Notes under the pieces: generated by a model
The model's database searches: none
Told to the model about the DNA's origin: nothing
What the model saw: only the letters and a program-made list of their open reading frames with translations
DNA from: Escherichia phage vB_EcoM_011D4
Direction: 5' to 3' (one strand)
DNA length: 64,000 nucleotides
Sequence record: MT478991.1
Shown here: in pieces, positions 5,531 to 26,029 of the stretch
Numbering within the stretch: the first letter of the stretch is position 1
Layout: each line of letters starts with the position of its first letter
Translations under genes and position numbers: made by a program

Positions 5531-5812
5531 TTATTCGTGATTAGTTTCGATGTTGTGCATTTTGCACCAGTTCAGCCAATCGCCAAGATCTTGATAGTTG
5601 ATGCTTTTATCTGCTGCCATCGTTTTTGTCTTGATACCCATATGTGCGTTATGAGTAAGCATTTTTACAGTGAACTCGATTTTATCGCCTTTAGCTTTAA
5701 CATCAACCAGTTTGGTCCACTGGCTACCAGCGCCGCGAATGTTCATACCAACGATGTTTCCGATGTATGCTTCTTTGTTTTTCAGGATTTCGGTTGCTTT
5801 GATGAATTTCAT
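5531..5812 (-). CDS. hypothetical protein (93 aa)
   Basis: ATG, RBS GGAGAATCAAAA, promoter cassette upstream. Confidence 0.55.
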   Translation of the reverse strand: MKFIKATEILKNKEAYIGNIVGMNIRGAGSQWTKLVDVKAKGDKIEFTVKMLTHNAHMGIKTKTMAADKSINYQDLGDWLNWCKMHNIETNHE

Positions 5813-5844
5813 TTTTGATTCTCCAGTTCGTTTCGGTATGGGTG

Positions 5845-5873
5845 TATTATGCTATGTTCTTACTTTGGTGTCA
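5845..5873 (-). promoter_or_regulatory. early promoter cassette
   Basis: TTGACA-17-CATAAT plus conserved leader. Confidence 0.55.
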
Positions 5874-5881
5874 ACAACTTT

Positions 5882-6151
5882 TTAGATATTTTCAGAAATA
5901 AATTTTAAAACTTGACGTAAATGTTTCTCATCTTTGATAGTCGCCGGAAGTTCTTCTTTTACTTCCTGTGCAAGATAGATATTTCCGTTCCAAGTGAAAG
6001 ATCCGTCTTCGTTTACGAGATAGCTGAACATCCACTCGCAATCATTTTCGATTTCATATACACACAGAAGGGTGTAATCGTTAAAGCTATTGATTTCAAG
6101 GTCGAAGCCGTGACGTTTTGCAAAGTTGGTAGTGGTTTTAGTCAGTGCCAT
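5882..6151 (-). CDS. hypothetical protein (89 aa)
   Basis: ATG, RBS AGGAGAATCAAACA, promoter cassette upstream. Confidence 0.55.
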   Translation of the reverse strand: MALTKTTTNFAKRHGFDLEINSFNDYTLLCVYEIENDCEWMFSYLVNEDGSFTWNGNIYLAQEVKEELPATIKDEKHLRQVLKFISENI

Positions 6152-18980: not shown

Positions 18981-19009
18981 ATTATGCAATACTCCCTAAT
19001 GTGTGTCAA
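18981..19009 (-). promoter_or_regulatory. early promoter cassette; hairpin across -10
   Basis: TTGACA-17-CATAAT. Confidence 0.5.
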
Positions 19010-19180
19010 CTGCCTTTTTGAAAGTTTTCTGCTTTTCTTAGGTGAAATTTCGAGGAATAAAAATTAAAGTCTTCCTCTTTCACGATACTAATTGACGTTG
19101 CAAGGTTTTCGTCCCAATGGTTGATGATATAGAGATTTCCTTCCGCTCTAAAATACCAACGTTGTTCTTTCATGTTCACC

Positions 19181-19348
19181 TCTTAGCTAAACCAGATTTT
19201 ACCATCGTTAGATACTTCGCAGATCAGGCGATTGCGCCATGTGCAGAAGTAAACACGTCCGAATTTACCTTCACCTGCATCGTGCTCGAAAGTAACGCCT
19301 TTGTTTTTCTTAGCCATGTTGCAAGCCTGACGATAAGTTAAAGTTTTC
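19181..19348 (-). CDS. hypothetical small protein (55 aa), below ORF-track cutoff
   Basis: Hand translation MKTLTYRQACNMAKKNKGVTFEHDAGEGKFGRVYFCTWRNRLICEVSNDGKIWFS; promoter cassette upstream. Confidence 0.4.
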
Positions 19349-19381
19349 ATTTGATTCTCCTTAAAGTGTGTTTCGATGTGC

Positions 19382-19411
19382 GTATTATGCTATGACAAGA
19401 TCCGATTGTCA
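19382..19411 (-). promoter_or_regulatory. early promoter cassette
   Basis: TTGACA-17-CATAAT. Confidence 0.5.
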
Positions 19412-19459
19412 ACAGCCAATAACAAAAAAGTCGCCACTATGGGCGACTTTGAACAAACA

Positions 19460-19936
19460 TTAATCATGACCGTGATTTGCAATATCCGCTCGCGTCTTAT
19501 CTTTGTGATTTCCTACGTCAAAGACACGATAACCATTTTCACGCAAAACTTTAATCACTTCTGGGTTATCCTCAAAGACTCCGACAACTTCATCTTTATC
19601 AAAGGATTTAATTACCTCTAATTTGATGTGATAGTCTTTACGGGAATCGGTACGGCCTCTCATAAAGATTTTATCAAAACACACCCCGTTAGAAATTAAC
19701 CAATCAATTGTTTCCATGTAAGCATGTGAACTTCGTCCGGTGAGGATGTAAATCAAATGCCCGTTGTCGGAAAGAGCATTAATAACACGAATTACATCGT
19801 AAATGGGGGAATCTCCCCCACATGCCTTGTTATATTCGACCCATGACTCGACTTTATCAAGATTTTCGGTTGGCATCTTTGCTAGTCGATGTGTTGGATC
19901 TGTGATCGTAAAATCTAAATCGACAAAATATATCAT
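19460..19936 (-). CDS. HAD-superfamily phosphatase, paralog of the PseT 3 prime-phosphatase domain
   Basis: DLDFT, YILTGRS, FEDNPE motifs parallel DIDGT, ITCSGRE, VDDRDQ of the pseT product in this window. Confidence 0.55.
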   Translation of the reverse strand: MIYFVDLDFTITDPTHRLAKMPTENLDKVESWVEYNKACGGDSPIYDVIRVINALSDNGHLIYILTGRSSHAYMETIDWLISNGVCFDKIFMRGRTDSRKDYHIKLEVIKSFDKDEVVGVFEDNPEVIKVLRENGYRVFDVGNHKDKTRADIANHGHD

Positions 19937-21093
19937 AGATATTTCCCGAATCGGTTGTAGTCATTGTCTGTTAAATCGGTATTAACCTGAGATACCAGAT
20001 ACATAATCTCTACTTCCTGCGCTGCATTCTGTACTTCGTCAGAGTTCAACCATTTACGCATCCACGGTAACGGATGACGACGAACACTAAACGGGCTTTT
20101 CAGTCCGGCAGCACGCATACGGGAATCTGCCAGGTATTCTACATAGGTTTTCAGAATTTCCGGTGACAGGTTAGGAATTGCCCCCATTGCGAATAGGTGG
20201 TCTACCCATTCTTTTTCTTGCTCGACAACATCCAGAAAGATTTTCGTTGCTTCGCCTTCAAGTTCTTCCGCAATCTGTTTCCACTCATCACCATCAACCC
20301 CCGTTTGCCATTGACGAATAATGTATTGTGTGCCTTTTAAGTGAAGTTGTTCATCACGCGCAATAAATTTCATGATCTTCGCGTTACCTTCCAGTAAACC
20401 ACGTTCGGCAAAGCTGAAAGTACATGCAAATGACACATAAAAACGAATTGCTTCCAGTGCATTTACGCAGTGTGCACACAGATAAATCGAAGCCATCAGA
20501 TCTCGTTTTGTGTCTTCAAAAAATCTTCTTGCATCATCTAATGCTGTCTGATCGTCTCGTTCTTCCCAATAGCGGAGTTCTTCTTTTGCATTCTCATACT
20601 TACGAATCCAATAAAGAACATCATCATAATATTGCCCGATAGATTCCGCTCGCTTCATGATAGCAGGGTTATCGATGATCTGGTCGAACTCACTAGCCGG
20701 ATCAATGAAACAGTTACGCATAATGTGTGTATAGCTTCGGCTATGAATCGTTTCGCTGAATGTCCATGTTTGCAACCATGTATCGAGAGTTGGATCAGAT
20801 ACAATTGGACCAAATGCTGCGGACGGTGCGCGACCTTGAATAGAATCAAGTAATGTCTGATACTTCAAGTTTTCAGTAAAGAAACGCTTTTCAACGTCAC
20901 CCATATTAAGATATTGAATGCGGTCGGTTGCAAGTGAAATTTCTTCGGGGCGCCAGAAAAATGACAATTGCTTTTCGATCAGTTCTTCAAATACTTGATG
21001 ACGCTGAATATCATAGCGAGCGATACCCAACCCACTACCCAGAAACATTGGTTCGTTCATAATATCAACATGTTCGCGGTTAAATACGCTCAT
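19933..21093 (-). CDS. nrdB: ribonucleotide reductase small (beta) subunit
   Basis: 386 aa; di-iron ligand regions (EAIRFYVSF, RDEQLH); synteny next to nrdA. Confidence 0.88.
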   Translation of the reverse strand: MSVFNREHVDIMNEPMFLGSGLGIARYDIQRHQVFEELIEKQLSFFWRPEEISLATDRIQYLNMGDVEKRFFTENLKYQTLLDSIQGRAPSAAFGPIVSDPTLDTWLQTWTFSETIHSRSYTHIMRNCFIDPASEFDQIIDNPAIMKRAESIGQYYDDVLYWIRKYENAKEELRYWEERDDQTALDDARRFFEDTKRDLMASIYLCAHCVNALEAIRFYVSFACTFSFAERGLLEGNAKIMKFIARDEQLHLKGTQYIIRQWQTGVDGDEWKQIAEELEGEATKIFLDVVEQEKEWVDHLFAMGAIPNLSPEILKTYVEYLADSRMRAAGLKSPFSVRRHPLPWMRKWLNSDEVQNAAQEVEIMYLVSQVNTDLTDNDYNRFGKYL

Positions 21094-21108
21094 TAATTCA
21101 CCTCACTA

Positions 21109-21276
21109 TCACTTTTTAACACAAAAGAACTTAGTATTTCTGTTAACTTCGCTATCCTGCTGCAATTCCTGCACAGCTTCAAAACAATTTTGATGTGATG
21201 AAAACTCTACGCTGGTAACAGTTCCTTTATTATATGATCCTACGCTAACGGAAAGCAATAACCATAATGTAGCCAT
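21109..21276 (-). CDS. small hydrophobic-N-terminus protein (55 aa), paralog E1
   Basis: Hand translation MATLWLLLSVSVGSYNKGTVTSVEFSSHQNCFEAVQELQQDSEVNRNTKFFCVKK; TAATG coupling to upstream gene. Confidence 0.4.
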   Translation of the reverse strand: MATLWLLLSVSVGSYNKGTVTSVEFSSHQNCFEAVQELQQDSEVNRNTKFFCVKK

Positions 21277-21449
21277 TAGTTCACCTTTTGTTTTTCAACG
21301 CAATATAGATTCATAAAGCGTTTATTGTCTTCACGGATAATCTCGCGAGCTTTAACGCAATCCTGCTTTGTGGAAAATTCAATGCTTGACATATTTCCGT
21401 AATTATACATTGAATTGCTTATTGCAATCAATAACCATACAGTAGCCAT
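21276..21449 (-). CDS. small hydrophobic-N-terminus protein (57 aa), paralog E2
   Basis: Hand translation MATVWLLIAISNSMYNYGNMSSIEFSTKQDCVKAREIIREDNKRFMNLYCVEKQKVN; TAATG coupling. Confidence 0.4.
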   Translation of the reverse strand: MATVWLLIAISNSMYNYGNMSSIEFSTKQDCVKAREIIREDNKRFMNLYCVEKQKVN

Positions 21450-21616
21450 TATCCGACAACCTCAAAACATTTATCATCAGGAAGAATAGCCCATTCTACG
21501 CCGTATTCATCCTTAACGTAGTAGCAAGTCCCATCATGTCGAGCATCATATTCATCACCGACAACAAAGCTATCAGCTAGTTCAAAATCTACAGCAACAC
21601 ATTTTAATTTGGTCAT
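21449..21616 (-). CDS. hypothetical small protein (55 aa)
   Basis: Start moved to ATG at 21616 (RBS GAGGATTTTATT); promoter with palindromic spacer upstream. Confidence 0.45.
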   Translation of the reverse strand: MTKLKCVAVDFELADSFVVGDEYDARHDGTCYYVKDEYGVEWAILPDDKCFEVVG

Positions 21617-21647
21617 AATAAAATCCTCACTTGTTTTTGATGGTTGT

Positions 21648-21676
21648 ATTATAGCGGGGATTTCTCCCCGCGTCAA
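21648..21676 (-). promoter_or_regulatory. early promoter cassette; palindromic spacer CGGGGAGAAATCCCCGC
   Basis: TTGACG-17-TATAAT. Confidence 0.5.
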
Positions 21677-21684
21677 CACTTATT

Positions 21685-23928
21685 TTACAGCTTGCAAGAT
21701 GAGCACTCGCTAGCGTCTTCCGTACCATCAGCACCATCACGCACGTTAGCGTAATACAGGGTTTTCAGACCGTAATATTGAGCAAACAGCATATCATCTA
21801 ACACATCAGCAATATCGACTTTACCAGTCTTATAAGTGCTTGGATCATAGGATGTATTGGAACTAATCGCCTGATCTACAAACTTCTGCATGATCGCTGC
21901 CAGTGTCAGATAGGGCTTGTTACCTTTCTTGATCAGTGTCCAAAGCAGGTCAATAACATCAGCATTATTCTCTACGTTCGGAATAACCTGATTAAATTGC
22001 CCTTCTTTCGATCCTTTAACCGATACAATCCCGCGAGGCGGTTCAATACCATTTGTGCTGTTAGACACCTGAGAGGACGACTCACAAGGCATCAGCGCCG
22101 ACAGTGTACTGTTACGAATGCCATATTTTTTCAGGTCTTCGCGCAGTTCTTCCCAATCCATCTCATACACCGGATCAACCAGTTCATCTACTGTCTTTTT
22201 GTACCAGTCGATAGGAAGTTCACCGCGACCATAGCGTGTTTCGTGCATCAGTTCGCAAGCACCCTTCTCTTTAGCCAGTCGCACACTAGCCTTAATCAGA
22301 GCATATTGCAAGCGTTCAAACGTTTTATGCGTAAACTCGTTAGCGTCTTCATATGTGAAGAAATTATCTGCTAGATATGATGCAAAGTTAGTAACACCAA
22401 CACCCAGAGAGCGACGTTTTTTGGCTGTCAGAGCTTGTTCTACAGGATAATCCTGATAATCTAACAGGTTGTCAAGTGCACGCACCATAACCATAGCAAT
22501 GCGTTCTACTTCTTCCATATTTTCGATATCGAAATTACCTAAAACATATGCTGCCAAAGTACATAGGCTAATTTCTGAATCATCCCGACCCATCGGTTTA
22601 GTAGGCAGTGCAATTTCACAACACAGGTTAGATTGTTTAATCGGTGCTACATTACGAATAAACGCCCCATGATTGTTCATGTTGTCTGTGAACGTTGGGT
22701 AGATTCGACCAGTGTTAAAACGTTCAATTGCCACCGCTAAAAACAGGTCTTCGGCTTTAACACGAGTTTTACGAACACTCGGATCTTTTTCCAGTTTTTC
22801 GTAAAGCTGGCGGAAACCTTCCTCATCTCGGAAGTACAGATCCCACAACAAGCCACCCGCAACATCTGGACTAAACAGAGTAATGTAATCCCGTTTAAGG
22901 AATCGCTCTACCATCAGGTTATTAATCTGTACGCCGTAATCAAGATGACGAATGCGGTTATCTTCCACCCCCTTATTGTTCTTCAACACAATCAGACTTT
23001 CAAACTCTAAATGCCACATTGGGTAATAGAGAGTCGCCGCCCCGCCACGAATACCGCCTTGTGAGCATGACTTAACGGCAGTCTGAAAATGTTTCCAGAA
23101 TGGGATAACGCCAGTATGACGAACTTCACCATGCCCGATCTTAGATCCTTCCGCGCGAATCATACCAGCATTGATACCGATACCAGCACGCTTACTAATA
23201 TACTTGATGATTGCATTTGCTGTTTCGTTGATGCCCTGCAATGAGTCATCACTTTCAATAACCACACACGAACTAAATTGTCGTGTCGGGGTACGCACAC
23301 CCGCCATAATCGGAGTAGGCAGAGAGATTTGCTTATTCGCAACAGCATTATAAAAATCAATCACATGTTCAAGTCGATTTTCTGTCTCTTCTTGATGCAA
23401 GCACATACCGATCAGCATATACGCAAATTGCGGTGTTTCAATGATTTTCTTAGTGCTGCGATCCTGAACAAGATATTTCTCTTTTAACTGCATCGCACCA
23501 GCGTAGGTCATTTTAAAATCAAGTTTATGATCGATGAATTTCTCCAGATATTCCACTTCTTCGCGGGAATACTTTTGCAGAATTTCGCGATCATATTTTC
23601 CGGTTGCAATATTACGCTCAATATGGCTATAAAAATCAATCGGTTGGAATTGACCGTATACTGATTTACGAAGCGCGAACATTGCAAGGTTACTTGCTAC
23701 ATATTGATAATCAGGTGTTTCTACAGTAATGTTATCTGCGGCGACCTTAATCAATACTTTCTGGATATCATTGGTAGACATACCTTCTGTCAGAAGTGGT
23801 TCAACCATATCAAACAATTCATATGGATCAACGTTATGACCTTCGGCTGCCGCTTCCAGAATTTTCATTACTTTTTCTTTTTCAAACGGAACAGTCAGAC
23901 CGGAAGACTTAACAACATTTTTAATCAT
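21685..23928 (-). CDS. nrdA: ribonucleotide reductase large (alpha) subunit
   Basis: 747 aa; ATP-cone N-terminus; catalytic-site regions (NLCCEI, PCESS); synteny. Confidence 0.9.
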   Translation of the reverse strand: MIKNVVKSSGLTVPFEKEKVMKILEAAAEGHNVDPYELFDMVEPLLTEGMSTNDIQKVLIKVAADNITVETPDYQYVASNLAMFALRKSVYGQFQPIDFYSHIERNIATGKYDREILQKYSREEVEYLEKFIDHKLDFKMTYAGAMQLKEKYLVQDRSTKKIIETPQFAYMLIGMCLHQEETENRLEHVIDFYNAVANKQISLPTPIMAGVRTPTRQFSSCVVIESDDSLQGINETANAIIKYISKRAGIGINAGMIRAEGSKIGHGEVRHTGVIPFWKHFQTAVKSCSQGGIRGGAATLYYPMWHLEFESLIVLKNNKGVEDNRIRHLDYGVQINNLMVERFLKRDYITLFSPDVAGGLLWDLYFRDEEGFRQLYEKLEKDPSVRKTRVKAEDLFLAVAIERFNTGRIYPTFTDNMNNHGAFIRNVAPIKQSNLCCEIALPTKPMGRDDSEISLCTLAAYVLGNFDIENMEEVERIAMVMVRALDNLLDYQDYPVEQALTAKKRRSLGVGVTNFASYLADNFFTYEDANEFTHKTFERLQYALIKASVRLAKEKGACELMHETRYGRGELPIDWYKKTVDELVDPVYEMDWEELREDLKKYGIRNSTLSALMPCESSSQVSNSTNGIEPPRGIVSVKGSKEGQFNQVIPNVENNADVIDLLWTLIKKGNKPYLTLAAIMQKFVDQAISSNTSYDPSTYKTGKVDIADVLDDMLFAQYYGLKTLYYANVRDGADGTEDASECSSCKL

Positions 23929-23956
23929 ATTACCTCACTTCATATTTTAGCAGGAA

Positions 23957-23997
23957 CAAGTTTATCCTCCATATTGGGGGCTTTCGCCCCCCTTTGT
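23957..23997 (-). repeat. direct repeat with GGGGGCGAAAGCCCCC hairpin, left flank of methyltransferase pseudogene
   Basis: About 35-bp match to the copy at 24757-24797. Confidence 0.5.
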
Positions 23998-24754
23998 TAC
24001 AAGTCTAACGTATTTTGATGTATTCTGTCAACGGCAATTTGATAATATTTTTCGTCTTTCTCTATGCCGACAAAATTTCGATTTAAGTTTCGACACGCAA
24101 CACCAGTTGTTCCACTTCCCATAGTAAAATCCAGAACAGTTTCCCCCTCGTTGGTGTAAGTTTTTATCAGATATTCCATTAACTCTACTGGTTTCTGTGT
24201 TGGGTGCAATCCTCTTTCTTTACATCGACCGGAATAACTTACAATAGATTCTGGGCATTTGGTATCGTATGTTTTATTATTATAGCTTTGGTTTGTGACT
24301 AAAGGGATCGCCCCACTTTCATTTTTGTTGCTTCCTTTTTTAATTGGCTTGTCTCTTTTCGTCATTTGCGGATAATAAAGTGGCATTTTCCAGTTCTTGA
24401 AAATATGATAACATCTTCATGAATTTTTAACGGTTGTCGTTTTGCTTGAACAAAATTTGCCGCAAATTTTTTATCCCACACCCAAGAATAACAGAATCCG
24501 TTCATATTACTATGAATTAATGCCGTTGTGAATGGTTGAGACGCGGTCATGACAATGGCATTTTTAGGTTTAATTATTCTATTAATCGCCGCCCACATTT
24601 CAGTAAATGGTATAACACTATCCCATTTACACGCTGTTGTTCCATATGGAGGATCACAAAGAATTAAATCTACGCTTTCCGTTTCAATTTCTTTCATCAG
24701 TTCCAGACAATCCCCGTTCATCAACCAGATTTTGTCAGTTCTAACGTCATTCAT
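23997..24754 (-). pseudogene. beta-class DNA methyltransferase (N6A or N4C) split by a +1 frameshift
   Basis: ORF 24362-24754 has DPPY motif IV; ORF 23997-24386 has HPTQKP and DFTMGSGTT (motif I); the two overlap by 25 nt in different frames. Confidence 0.55.
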
Positions 24755-24756
24755 GA

Positions 24757-24797
24757 TATACTATTCCTCATAAATGGGGGCTTTCGCCCCCTTTGTT
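24757..24797 (-). repeat. direct repeat with GGGGGCGAAAGCCCCC hairpin, right flank of methyltransferase pseudogene
   Basis: About 35-bp match to the copy at 23957-23997. Confidence 0.5.
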
Positions 24798-26029
24798 TAT
24801 ACTGCCATTTGAGCGGTGATCGCTGGATGGCTTTGATAGTTGTGGATTTTAAAGTCTTTCGGAGTCTTTGTCAATACCTCATCTAAAGATTTAAATTCCG
24901 GCAACTCAATTGTTGGTTTATCAAACGGAACACGGCTTAACTGTTCCATAACTTGATCAAAATGGTTTTTGTAAATGTGAGTATCTCCACCAGAGAAAAT
25001 CAGTTCTCCTACCTCAAGATCACACATTTTCGCTATGATGTGAGTTAACAGCGCATAGCTGGCAACATTAAAGGGCAAGCCCAAAAAGCTGTCTACGCTT
25101 CGCTGAAACCACATACAAGATAGTTTACCTTCATTGACGTAGAATTGCACGAAAGGATGACATACACCTAATACAGCATTATGTGTTCCTTGTACGTTCC
25201 ATGCGTCAATGATAATACGTCTATTATACGGATCATTCTTGATTAAGTCAATCACGTTTTGTAACTGGTCTTCCCAAATCTTCGGGCGATAGACATATTC
25301 TTCATCGTCTTTAGTGCTTGATGTGTCTACGTCCATACTAACAAAGATCGTGGTATCCGGTGCTATAATATCCCCACCCAGATAATCACTATCAAGCAGA
25401 TAACCGAAATAACCATCATCTACCCATTCCTGGAATCCCCACAAGCAATATGCATCATTAACAAAATTAGATTGGGTCTTCCAGTGATCTGCTACTAAGA
25501 ATTGATTATATTCAGAATCAAACTCTTCATAACGCATACCACGCCAGATAGCACATAAACGGTCTTCTGTTTCATTGGTTGGCGTAAAGTCTTCTACCCA
25601 CGGGTGTTTAAATGTATGTGTATATTTGCTATTAACGCGCTTAATTTTGATTTCACCATGTGGATGAATCGGTTTGCGTCGCCACGCCATACCATACATA
25701 TTGCCGACATTATAACCATTGAATCGCAAAGGATTCTTTTCTTTCATATCAAGACAGTTACCGCGCCAAATGTCAAAGGCTTCTTCGTCAAACTTACCGC
25801 GTGTAATTTCCTGTAAGCGACGGCGGTCAAGTGATCCTTCCATAAACCATAGCAACTCGCCAATTACAGAGGCTGTAGCCATCTTTTTAGTAGTCAGTAA
25901 GGGGAAACCCTTGCTTAAATCAATTCGCATCTCTGCACCGAATTTAGAGAGCGTACCGACCCCCGTGCGGTCTTCACGAGGCCAGCCATTATCAAGAACA
26001 TCACGCAACAGTTTCAAATATTCTTTCAT
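24797..26029 (-). CDS. td: thymidylate synthase with a large internal insertion
   Basis: N-terminal EDRTGVGT, catalytic core LGVCHPFVQFY, C-terminal HPAI..AV; 410 aa vs about 286 aa recalled for T4 Td; no intron (continuous frame). Confidence 0.85.
   Translation of the reverse strand: MKEYLKLLRDVLDNGWPREDRTGVGTLSKFGAEMRIDLSKGFPLLTTKKMATASVIGELLWFMEGSLDRRRLQEITRGKFDEEAFDIWRGNCLDMKEKNPLRFNGYNVGNMYGMAWRRKPIHPHGEIKIKRVNSKYTHTFKHPWVEDFTPTNETEDRLCAIWRGMRYEEFDSEYNQFLVADHWKTQSNFVNDAYCLWGFQEWVDDGYFGYLLDSDYLGGDIIAPDTTIFVSMDVDTSSTKDDEEYVYRPKIWEDQLQNVIDLIKNDPYNRRIIIDAWNVQGTHNAVLGVCHPFVQFYVNEGKLSCMWFQRSVDSFLGLPFNVASYALLTHIIAKMCDLEVGELIFSGGDTHIYKNHFDQVMEQLSRVPFDKPTIELPEFKSLDEVLTKTPKDFKIHNYQSHPAITAQMAV

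What the first reader, a model, noticed from the sequence alone, without database searches (positions are those of the whole stretch)
21109..21616. Three tightly coupled micro-genes between nrdA and nrdB, two of them hydrophobic-N-terminus paralogs
Seen in sequence: ORFs 21449-21616, 21276-21449 and 21109-21276 are joined by TAATG overlaps. The latter two encode MATLWLLLSVSVGSY... and MATVWLLIAISNSMY... peptides with conserved Cys residues, invisible at a 60-aa cutoff. In T4 this interval holds nrdA/nrdB-associated mobile elements rather than such genes, as far as I recall. Inference: small membrane or secreted peptides of unknown role.
Basis: partly seen in the sequence, partly recalled or inferred. 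Interest (0 to 1): 0.45.

Follow-up and report, generated by a model that had tools for sequence, protein, structure and literature searches.

The report
Three small early phage genes
The three tiny genes between the two ribonucleotide-reductase genes of this RB49-like coliphage are real, conserved and already annotated as hypothetical proteins; two of them belong to a phage-wide family of about 57-residue proteins predicted to be soluble, and their greasy N-terminus is predicted to be a buried beta-strand, not a membrane anchor or export signal.

Summary
The window is a Krischvirus (97.8% identical to RB49 across this region). The three minus-strand ORFs (21616-21449, 21449-21276, 21276-21109) are joined by TAATG overlaps and correspond to RB49p233/232/231, all annotated 'hypothetical protein'. 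They are under purifying selection (pN/pS 0.20, 0.04, 0.21). They sit behind a textbook PeSL, an early sigma-70-type promoter with a GGGG..CCCC hairpin in its spacer, and directly ahead of nrdB.

ORF2 and ORF3 are tandem paralogues (40% identity) of phrog_5579. This family has no Pfam or NCBIfam model. Members are 51-76 residues long, every member has exactly two Cys at invariant positions, and W5 and L7 are nearly invariant.

A 42-sequence AlphaFold2 model (pLDDT 88) gives a compact beta-beta-alpha-beta domain in which the hydrophobic N-terminus is a strand. No member reaches transmembrane hydropathy, and most lack a basic n-region. The 'membrane or secreted peptide' reading is therefore not supported.

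Relatives lie in replication and nucleotide-metabolism modules of unrelated phages, including one with no annotated RNR. Natural isolates lack or disrupt each of the three genes.

The most likely role is as dispensable, soluble early accessory proteins that bind other proteins. The function remains unknown, and the case is ordinary.

The parts
21648..21676 (-). PeSL: an early sigma-70-type promoter, TTGACG (21676-21671), 17-nt spacer, TATAAT (21653-21648). The spacer CGGGGAGAAATCCCCGC forms a hairpin. It begins 9 nt after the nrdA stop codon.
   Evidence: The promoter scan gives 11/12 matches. The hairpin folds at -22.4 kcal/mol, z = -3.2. The same architecture is described for RB49 and phi1 in PMC2839356. 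It is one of 7 spacer-hairpin promoters in the window, all on the minus strand. The identical sequence flanks both sides of a methyltransferase cassette in phage KMB43 and precedes the single family member in L020.
21449..21616 (-). ORF1: 55 aa, acidic (pI 4.2, net charge -8), three Cys; orthologue of RB49p233; phrog_16302; an ORFan restricted to Krischvirus.
   Evidence: (E 1.5e-41). pN/pS is 0.20. No paralogue in the window. No Pfam, NCBIfam or PDB relative above threshold.
21276..21449 (-). ORF2: 57 aa, basic (pI 8.7); orthologue of RB49p232; a phrog_5579 member. Predicted fold: beta1 (4-11), beta2 (20-25), helix (28-41), beta3 (46-53). Invariant C31 and C50.
   Evidence: pN/pS is 0.04.
21109..21276 (-). 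ORF3: 55 aa (pI 6.5); orthologue of RB49p231; a tandem paralogue of ORF2 (40% identity) in phrog_5579, and the faster-evolving copy.
   Evidence: pN/pS is 0.21, with 32 variable sites against 14 in ORF2.
19933..21093 (-). nrdB (RNR small subunit). It starts 15 nt after the ORF3 stop and has its own GAGGTGA Shine-Dalgarno sequence. No promoter-like site was seen between ORF3 and nrdB, so it is inferred to be co-transcribed with ORF1-3.
19460..19936 (-). HAD-type phosphatase related to the PNKP phosphatase domain. It overlaps the nrdB stop and is the last gene of the inferred unit.
   Evidence: PF25109 at E 2.8e-13.
19427..19450 (-). Terminator-like hairpin followed by a T run, which would close the unit. 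The next promoter is at 19412-19384.
21685..23928 (-). nrdA (RNR large subunit), the upstream neighbour.

Best explanation
These are three real accessory genes of an RB49-like T4-type coliphage. They form the leading cistrons of an early operon: PeSL promoter, ORF1, ORF2, ORF3, nrdB, HAD phosphatase. Host sigma-70 RNA polymerase would start at the PeSL about 25 nt before ORF1. Each ORF has its own Shine-Dalgarno sequence, and the TAATG overlaps couple their translation, so they are likely made early in infection at linked levels. ORF2 and ORF3 are tandem duplicates of a phage-wide mini-protein family (phrog_5579) of about 57 residues. They are predicted to fold into a soluble beta-beta-alpha-beta domain in which the hydrophobic N-terminus is a strand, inferred to be the central one. 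A Cys at the start of the helix and a Cys in the last strand are invariant. My inference, which is not shown, has two parts. First, one helix can cover only one face of a strand that is hydrophobic on both faces, so the proteins probably act as homo- or heterodimers, or dock on a partner. Second, they probably bind and modulate a protein of the DNA-replication or nucleotide-supply machinery, or another host protein, as dispensable host-takeover or fitness factors. ORF1 is an unrelated, very acidic ORFan restricted to Krischvirus. What is shown: gene reality, paralogy, family membership, the promoter motif, and the fact that isolates exist without each gene. The fold is predicted, not solved. 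Cytoplasmic location, dimerisation and the binding role are inferred.
For: Real genes: they are annotated in RB49 and Phi1; pN/pS is 0.04-0.21; the frame is kept in a relative whose NrdA, NrdB and Td are only 85%, 81% and 59% identical. Early operon: the PeSL at 21676-21648 matches the published element whose promoter and attenuator activities were measured; all 35 near-consensus promoters in the window are on the coding strand. Family: phrog_5579 at E 5e-24; 56 representative clusters at E<=1e-3 among 1.84 billion proteins; 45 of 52 distant members hit the same PHROG; 82 of 82 distinct members have exactly two Cys. Predicted soluble fold: pLDDT 88.1; hydropathy and n-region statistics. Context: relatives sit in replication or nucleotide-metabolism modules. 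One sits between nrdA and nrdB, others directly after a DnaB-like helicase, between ligase and primase-helicase, or in a cluster with dCMP deaminase, PRPP synthetase and NAMPT. Dispensable: FL15 lacks ORF2 and ORF3; FL20 has a single ORF2/ORF3 chimera and a frameshifted ORF1; FL04 has a frameshifted ORF1. All three phages were isolated on E. coli K-12 MG1655.
Confidence: 0.6

Rival explanations
1. One reading: ORF2 and ORF3 are small membrane-anchored or Sec-exported peptides. The hydrophobic N-terminus would be a signal or anchor, S-x-G a signal-peptidase site, and the two Cys would form a periplasmic disulfide. They might act in superinfection exclusion or envelope modulation.
Against: A confident AlphaFold2 model puts residues 4-11 in the beta-sheet (pLDDT 86-90 over residues 1-20). 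Maximum 19-residue hydropathy is 0.56-1.43 in all 52 members, below 1.6. The apolar run (median 13) is shorter than E. coli signal peptides, which typically span 18-30 residues in total by established knowledge. 45 of 52 members have no K or R in the first six residues. W5 and L7 are nearly invariant, unlike signal sequences.
Confidence: 0.12
2. ORF2 and ORF3 are RNR helpers. They would be a mini redox or metal-cofactor protein, with two Cys per chain and four per dimer, that supports NrdAB. This could be by reducing NrdA or by maintaining the NrdB di-iron-tyrosyl cofactor, as thioredoxin, NrdH or YfaE do. That would explain the conserved position between nrdA and nrdB.
For: The arrangement nrdA, PeSL, family member, nrdB is kept in a second T4-like lineage that shares only 59-85% identity in flanking enzymes. 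The genes are translationally linked to nrdB. The Cys pair is invariant, with one Cys in the first turn of the helix. One relative lies in a nucleotide-metabolism cluster.
Against: Family members occur in phages with no RNR nearby, and in a complete 44.6-kb Koutsourovirus genome with no annotated RNR at all. There is no CxxC motif and no hit to glutaredoxin, thioredoxin, Fer2 or NrdI models. FL15 keeps nrdA and nrdB but has lost both paralogues.
Confidence: 0.1
3. ORF1, and possibly ORF2 and ORF3, are anti-defence proteins. The very acidic ORF1 could be a DNA mimic that blocks restriction of this phage's DNA. From my own knowledge, not tested here, RB49-type phages carry unmodified cytosine.
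For: ORF1 has pI 4.2 and net charge -8 over 55 aa. It is expressed from a strong early promoter. The flanks of nrdA are where DNA-methyltransferase cassettes have landed in two Krischvirus genomes. An anti-CRISPR (AcrIIC3) is among the generic fold matches for ORF2.
Confidence: 0.12
4. The ORFs are non-functional filler: chance or decaying reading frames in a recombination hotspot.
For: Individual isolates lack or disrupt each gene. The interval is a hotspot for homing-endonuclease and methyltransferase insertions.
Against: pN/pS is 0.04-0.21. All three ORFs were intact in 8 of the 11 Krischvirus genomes whose interval was read, and about 54-57 records carry the cluster at full length by similarity. 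The family shows deep conservation with invariant residues across unrelated phages.
Confidence: 0.03

Closest known systems
RB49p231, RB49p232, RB49p233 (also phi1 ORF231-233): annotated hypothetical proteins of Krischvirus
   Same: They are 96-100% identical proteins, in the same order and overlaps, between nrdA and nrdB.
   Different: Nothing of substance differs; this window's copies are orthologues. No function has been assigned in any record.
PHROG family phrog_5579 (unknown function)
   Same: ORF2 and ORF3 match it end to end (E 5.5e-24 and 5.7e-24), as do 45 of 52 distant homologues.
   Different: In Krischvirus the gene is tandemly duplicated. The nine other contexts examined each hold one copy.
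PeSL cassettes of RB49 and phi1 (Arbiol et al. 2010, PMC2839356; Comeau et al. 2014, PMC4122927)
   Same: The nrdA/ORF1 intergenic sequence has the defining layout: a consensus -35 and -10 with a GGGG..CCCC stem-loop in the spacer, a Shine-Dalgarno sequence and a start codon. In KMB43 two identical copies bracket an inserted methyltransferase gene, which is the published shuffling pattern.
   Different: There is no second PeSL downstream of ORF3, so ORF1-3 are not a PeSL-bounded mini-circle module. They share the transcript with the core gene nrdB.
T4 mobE and nrdB.1 in the nrdA-nrdB interval
   Same: They occupy the same interval. Some Krischvirus genomes (SSG23, phiS, FL15) do carry a homing endonuclease immediately upstream of nrdB. 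By eye, its C-terminal part resembles T4 NrdB.1; no alignment statistic was computed.
   Different: ORF1-3 are unrelated to these endonucleases and are not mobile elements themselves. This window has no endonuclease in the interval.
DUF1482 (PF07358) and other phage mini-proteins of about 50-70 residues in BFVD
   Same: The predicted fold and size are similar (TM 0.72 to a DUF1482 protein; many uncharacterised phage proteins at TM 0.7-0.8).
   Different: The Foldseek E-value is only 0.17. None of 52 family members hits PF07358 at E<=0.1. DUF1482 also has no known function: no paper in the searchable library mentions it.
E. coli YfaE, NrdH and NrdI (small RNR accessory proteins encoded with nrd genes)
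   Same: They are small proteins encoded next to RNR subunit genes, and ORF2 and ORF3 have conserved Cys.
   Different: There is no sequence match and no CxxC or four-Cys ferredoxin motif. The family also occurs in phages without RNR.

Membership tests
phrog_5579 | Significant full-length match to the family HMM | tested here: met
   ORF2 matches at E 5.5e-24 (residues 2-53 against profile 1-52 of 52) and ORF3 at E 5.7e-24. 45 of 52 distant homologues match.
phrog_16302 | Significant full-length match to the family HMM | tested here: met
   ORF1 matches at E 1.5e-41, residues 1-55 against profile 1-55.
PeSL (promoter-early stem-loop) | Near-consensus sigma-70 -35 and -10 boxes in an intergenic region upstream of an early ORF | tested here: met
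   TTGACG, 17 nt, TATAAT; 11/12 matches, at 21676-21648.
PeSL (promoter-early stem-loop) | Stable G/C-tract stem-loop within or next to the promoter | tested here: met
   CGGGGAGAAATCCCCG lies in the spacer; the region folds at -22.4 kcal/mol, z = -3.2. This is one of the two most common stem-loop placements described in PMC2839356.
PeSL (promoter-early stem-loop) | Measured promoter and attenuator activity, and recombination at the element | not testable with these tools
   Activity was measured for other PeSLs only. Recombination at this element is supported indirectly by the PeSL duplication flanking the KMB43 methyltransferase.
Sec signal peptide or transmembrane anchor | Basic n-region, hydrophobic core of at least 10-15 residues (signal) or about 19 residues (TM helix) | tested here: not met
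   Maximum KD-19 is 0.61 for ORF2, 0.81 for ORF3 and at most 1.43 in 52 members. K or R occurs in the first six residues in only 7 of 52. The median apolar run is 13. The region is modelled as a beta-strand at pLDDT 86-90. No dedicated predictor was available.
Thioredoxin, glutaredoxin or NrdH redoxins | CxxC active site in a thioredoxin fold; match to the Pfam models | tested here: not met
   The Cys are 15-27 residues apart. There is no Pfam hit. The fold is beta-beta-alpha-beta in 57 residues.
YfaE-type [2Fe-2S] ferredoxin | Four-Cys cluster motif and a Fer2 domain | tested here: not met
   There are exactly two Cys per chain and no Fer2 hit. Cluster binding by a dimer cannot be tested here.
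DUF1482 (PF07358) | Match to the Pfam HMM above the gathering score | tested here: not met
   No member of 52 hits it at E<=0.1. There is only a fold-level resemblance (TM 0.72, E 0.17).
DUF7244 (PF23896), considered for ORF1 | Match above the gathering score (27 bits) | tested here: not met
   15.9 bits, E 0.014.
mobE-type or other homing endonuclease (the T4 occupant of the interval) | HNH or GIY-YIG nuclease domain | tested here: not met
   ORF1-3 give no such Pfam hits. Endonucleases are present only in other isolates.

The most novel reading that the evidence does not exclude
phrog_5579 proteins might be a previously unrecognised class of two-Cys mini redox or metal-binding proteins. As dimers they would contribute four Cys to a Zn or Fe-S site, or use a helix-N-terminal Cys as a redox centre. 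They would service nucleotide supply and replication enzymes such as NrdAB. That would explain why one copy is kept between nrdA and nrdB in two diverged T4-like lineages, and next to helicase, ligase or polymerase genes elsewhere. The Krischvirus duplication would then give a heterodimer.
Probability: 0.08. Interest if true: 0.6.

Novelty: already known. Interest (0 to 1): 0.25.

Why it matters
The practical value is small. This work corrects a tempting misreading: a hydrophobic N-terminus plus cysteines does not here mean a membrane or secreted peptide. It also gives an otherwise blank PHROG family a confident predicted fold, a defining signature (W-L-L strand, S-x-G-x-Y-N-x-G loop, two invariant Cys) and a genomic-context profile. 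Natural variants such as FL15 (lacking ORF2 and ORF3), FL20 and the L019 chimera offer ready-made material for a phenotype test. If the Cys pair proved to bind a cofactor or to act on RNR, the family would become more interesting. Nothing here demonstrates that.

Tried and rejected
1. The word-indexed protein search with ORF2 or ORF1 alone returned only near-identical Krischvirus proteins. The exhaustive HMMER search with the two-paralogue profile was needed to find the family.
2. The first AlphaFold2 run, with only the two paralogues, was poor (pLDDT 56). I discarded it in favour of the 42-sequence run.
4. Pfam, NCBIfam and PDB sequence searches gave nothing above threshold for any of the three proteins or for the family profile.
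5. T4 NrdB.1 was checked as a possible counterpart and rejected. By eye it resembles the C-terminal part of the mobE-like endonuclease; no alignment statistic was computed.
6. ORF1 as a third, diverged paralogue was rejected. The family HMM does not hit it at E<=10, and ORF1 has no paralogue in the window.
7. An RNA element in the interval was rejected: no Rfam match at E<=1 in the interval, and none near gathering score anywhere in 19000-25000.
8. Scans of bacterial genomes for prophage copies failed because the alignments have no stretch conserved enough to make a DNA pattern. The IMG/VR scan returned only two Krischvirus loci.
9. Literature searches for Krischvirus transcriptomes and for DUF1482 found nothing useful.
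10. Model coordinates are not exposed, so the C31-C50 distance and the strand order could not be measured.

Full report
**What the window is**

The stretch 20900-21900 is 97.8% identical to Escherichia phage RB49 and 96-98% identical to about 50 other Krischvirus genomes. In RB49 the interval between nrdA and nrdB is annotated with three hypothetical proteins, RB49p233, p232 and p231. Their lengths and overlaps are the same as here. Phi1 lists them as ORF233-231.

**Check of the observation**

- On the minus strand, ORF1 runs 21616-21449 (55 aa), ORF2 21449-21276 (57 aa) and ORF3 21276-21109 (55 aa).
- Both junctions read TAATG.
- Each start is preceded by a purine-rich Shine-Dalgarno sequence: GAGGA 7 nt before ORF1, GAGG before ORF2 and AAGGTGA before ORF3. 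nrdB follows 15 nt after ORF3 with GAGGTGA.
- The mechanical ORF list extends ORF1 to a GTG at 21679. That codon lies inside the promoter described below, so the ATG at 21616 is the credible start.
- ORF2 and ORF3 are paralogues: 40% identity, 73% positives, E 2e-16.

**Are they genes?**

I extracted the interval from ten Krischvirus genomes plus the window. Nei-Gojobori counts give the following.

| ORF | pN/pS | Variable sites | At third codon positions |
|---|---|---|---|
| ORF1 | 0.20 | 15 | 8 |
| ORF2 | 0.04 | 14 | 11 |
| ORF3 | 0.21 | 32 | 18 |

A metagenomic T4-like relative (L020, L021) shares only 85% (NrdA), 81% (NrdB) and 59% (Td) protein identity with this phage. It still carries an intact family member, 47% identical to ORF2, between nrdA and nrdB. 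The genes are real.

**Transcription context**

Nine bases after the nrdA stop lies TTGACG, then the spacer CGGGGAGAAATCCCCGC, then TATAAT, at 21676-21648. The spacer folds into a stable hairpin: the region folds at -22.4 kcal/mol, z = -3.2.

This is the PeSL (promoter-early stem-loop) described for RB49 and phi1. PeSLs are strong sigma-70-like early promoters combined with a stem-loop attenuator. Having the stem-loop between -35 and -10 is one of the commonest placements, and PeSLs also act as recombination points for gene shuffling (PMC2839356).

- The window has 35 promoters with at least 11/12 matches. All are on the minus strand, and seven carry a GGGG..CCCC spacer hairpin.
- In phage KMB43 two identical copies of this PeSL bracket an inserted cytosine-methyltransferase gene between nrdA and ORF1.
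- The same PeSL precedes the single family member in L020.
- I saw no promoter-like site between ORF3 and nrdB. The next terminator-like hairpin is at 19450-19427, after the HAD phosphatase gene.
- The inferred unit is therefore PeSL, ORF1, ORF2, ORF3, nrdB, phosphatase. Transcription itself was not tested.

**The ORF2/ORF3 family**

- Both proteins match phrog_5579 (unknown function) end to end at E about 5e-24.
- They match no Pfam, NCBIfam or PDB sequence above threshold.
- An exhaustive HMMER search of 1.84 billion representative proteins with the two-paralogue profile found 56 clusters at E<=1e-3. Almost all are 42-76 residues long (median about 60), and three long repetitive proteins are evident false positives.
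- In alignments of 52 and 42 members, C31 and C50 are invariant. W5 and L7 are present in 94-100% of members, F25 in 86-96%, and S11, G13, N16 and G18 in 71-88%.
- All 82 distinct sequences contain exactly two Cys, 15-27 residues apart.
- The window holds only these two members. The nine other contexts examined each hold one. The tandem duplication is thus a Krischvirus feature.

**Fold, and the hydrophobic N-terminus**

AlphaFold2 with two sequences was poor (pLDDT 56). With 42 sequences it gave mean pLDDT 88.1 and pTM 0.70. The model has beta1 at 4-11, beta2 at 20-25, a helix at 28-41 and beta3 at 46-53. The MATVWLLIAIS stretch is thus a strand of a compact domain.

Independent sequence statistics agree:

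- The maximum 19-residue Kyte-Doolittle mean is 0.61 for ORF2, 0.81 for ORF3 and at most 1.43 in any of 52 members, against a transmembrane threshold of 1.6.
- The apolar run has a median of 13 residues.
- Only 7 of 52 members have a basic residue in the first six positions.

Near-invariance of W5 and L7 also fits a structural core better than a signal sequence. I therefore rate the membrane or secreted reading as unlikely (about 0.12). No signal-peptide predictor or experiment was available, and an invariant Cys pair is what exported mini-proteins often show.

**Fold comparison**

- Foldseek against BFVD finds the Krischvirus paralogue, then a long list of uncharacterised phage proteins of 50-70 residues. 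One DUF1482 protein appears at TM 0.72 with E 0.17.
- No member hits the DUF1482 Pfam model.
- The fold gives no functional assignment.

**Genomic context of relatives**

| Locus | Context |
|---|---|
| L020, L021 | nrdA, family member, nrdB, in a related T4-like phage |
| L006, L028 | Directly after, and overlapping, a DnaB-like helicase gene |
| L017/L018 (Enterobacter phage SDFMU_EhYP, a Koutsourovirus) | Unannotated ORF between helicase and DNA polymerase; the complete 44.6-kb genome has no annotated RNR |
| L023, L024 | Between a ligase-like gene (faint Pfam hit) and the primase-helicase gene (ligase side seen in L023 only) |
| L008 | Head of an operon with a PD-(D/E)XK nuclease and PolA |
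| L022 | After a protein with a Lar restriction-alleviation-type domain (PF14354) |
| L007 | A nin-like region |
| L025, L026 | A cluster with dCMP deaminase, HU, PRPP synthetase and NAMPT |
| L027 | Small ORFs next to a Dam methylase |

The common theme is the early replication and nucleotide-metabolism part of phage genomes. Small ORFs of every kind gather there, so this is weak evidence. The occurrence without any phage RNR argues against a role specific to RNR.

**Natural variation**

- FL15 has ORF1, no ORF2 or ORF3, and a homing endonuclease before nrdB. The junction sequence suggests the deletion runs from the ORF2 start to the ORF3 end.
- FL20 has a single chimeric copy (MATVW|LLLSVSVG...), as expected from unequal crossing-over between the paralogues, plus a frameshifted ORF1.
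- FL04 has a frameshifted ORF1.
- A metagenomic Krischvirus contig (L019) has a 44-residue ORF2/ORF3 chimera that lacks most of the predicted helix and C31, next to a different HNH endonuclease.
- SSG23 and phiS keep all three ORFs and add the endonuclease.

FL04, FL15 and FL20 were isolated on E. coli K-12 MG1655. All three genes are therefore dispensable for growth on a laboratory host, with the caveat that the frameshifts could be sequencing errors.

**ORF1**

ORF1 matches phrog_16302 (E 1.5e-41) and is restricted to Krischvirus. It is very acidic (pI 4.2, net charge about -8). It has no paralogue in the window and is not detected by the ORF2/ORF3 family profile. It gives only a sub-threshold DUF7244 match (15.9 bits against a cut-off of 27).

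**Most likely mechanism**

What is shown:
- The three genes are real.
- They lie behind a PeSL.
- Their translation is coupled, and they sit directly ahead of nrdB.
- ORF2 and ORF3 belong to a conserved family with a Cys pair; the soluble mini-domain fold is a confident prediction, not a solved structure.
- Each gene is dispensable in some isolates.

What is inferred:
- They are made very early and are cytoplasmic.
- beta1 is hydrophobic on both faces, and a single helix can cover only one side of the sheet. The proteins therefore probably form homo- or heterodimers, or dock on a partner.
- They probably act as small binding modulators of a host or phage protein. This is the usual role of early ORFans in T4-type hyperplastic regions.
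- ORF2 is tightly constrained while ORF3 evolves about five times faster at non-synonymous sites. The helix surface changes from basic (KAREIIRED) to acidic or neutral (EAVQELQQD). This is consistent with divergence in partner specificity after duplication.

Rivals, with my estimates: exported or membrane peptide 0.12; RNR redox or cofactor helper 0.10; anti-restriction or anti-defence, especially acidic ORF1, 0.12; non-functional 0.03.

**Comparison with what is known, and novelty**

The genes are orthologues of ORFs already deposited and annotated, and members of existing PHROG families. The promoter is a published element. T4's interval indeed holds mobE (PMC2988022) plus nrdB.1, which are unrelated to these ORFs. 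The feature is therefore already known as uncharacterised ORFs.

What this analysis adds:
- a confident predicted fold;
- the family signature;
- evidence against the membrane or secreted reading;
- the context survey;
- the catalogue of natural deletion and chimera variants.

Interest is low to moderate (0.25). The most novel reading not excluded is a two-Cys mini redox or metal protein serving nucleotide-supply enzymes. I give it about 8%.

Noticed in passing
window 23975-24793 (minus strand): A DNA methyltransferase cassette sits between td and nrdA. Its C-terminal half matches PF01555 N6_N4_Mtase at E 1e-26, and its N-terminal half carries a DPPY motif. RB49 has only a 69-nt spacer here. 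The cassette is flanked by two copies of a near-identical repeat of about 22 nt, AACAAAGGGGG(G)CGAAAGCCCCCA, which contains a hairpin with a GAAA loop. RB49 has a single copy of this hairpin. Megablast finds the cassette in none of 50,697 phage records; only the flank matches.
   Followed up: partly
window 24362-24386 (minus strand): That methyltransferase is split into two overlapping ORFs, 24754-24362 (130 aa) and 24386-23997 (129 aa), by a frameshift near the A-run in ACTGGAAAATGCC. It could be a pseudogene, a sequencing error or a slippery site.
   Followed up: no
L002 (phage KMB43) 2217-3190: A C5-cytosine methyltransferase gene is inserted between nrdA and ORF1. It is bracketed by two identical copies of the PeSL CTGTTGACGCGGGGAGAAATCCCCGCTATAAT, a clean example of PeSL-mediated cassette insertion. 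Both flanks of nrdA are thus landing sites for methyltransferase genes in Krischvirus.
   Followed up: yes
L009 (SSG23) 701-1375; L010 (FL15) 701-1375; L014 (phiS) 401-1048; L003 (T4) 5717-5968: Some Krischvirus genomes carry a homing endonuclease of about 215-224 aa immediately upstream of nrdB. By eye, its C-terminal part (MRKPKT...NPMFG...CPHCGK..NKGNALRWH.D.CK) resembles T4 NrdB.1. T4 mobE plus nrdB.1 may therefore be a split version of the same element at the same site. No alignment statistic was computed.
   Followed up: partly
L019 1732-2271; L020 3260-3973: Further, different homing endonucleases occur at this locus in metagenomic relatives. An HNH_3/AP2 gene lies between the ORF2/3 chimera and nrdB. 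An I-HmuI/NUMOD-like gene splits nrdA into two ORFs.
   Followed up: no
L016 (FL20) 2501-2668; L019 1587-1721: There are two independent recombinants between the tandem paralogues: a full-length chimera (MATVW|LLLSVSVG...) and a 44-aa in-frame deletion chimera (…EFATKQD|SEVNRNTKFFCVKK). This shows that unequal crossing-over is active at the duplication.
   Followed up: yes
window, whole (minus strand): All 35 sigma-70-like promoters with at least 11/12 matches lie on the minus strand. Seven (3140, 5273, 5517, 8774, 9901, 10297, 21676) have a GGGG..CCCC hairpin filling the 17-18 nt spacer.
   Followed up: partly
L017 2644-2814 (Enterobacter phage SDFMU_EhYP, OQ884031.1): An unannotated 56-aa ORF between the AAA ATPase (helicase) and DNA polymerase genes is a clear phrog_5579 member (HMM E 8e-22). 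It is a missed gene in the deposited annotation.
   Followed up: yes
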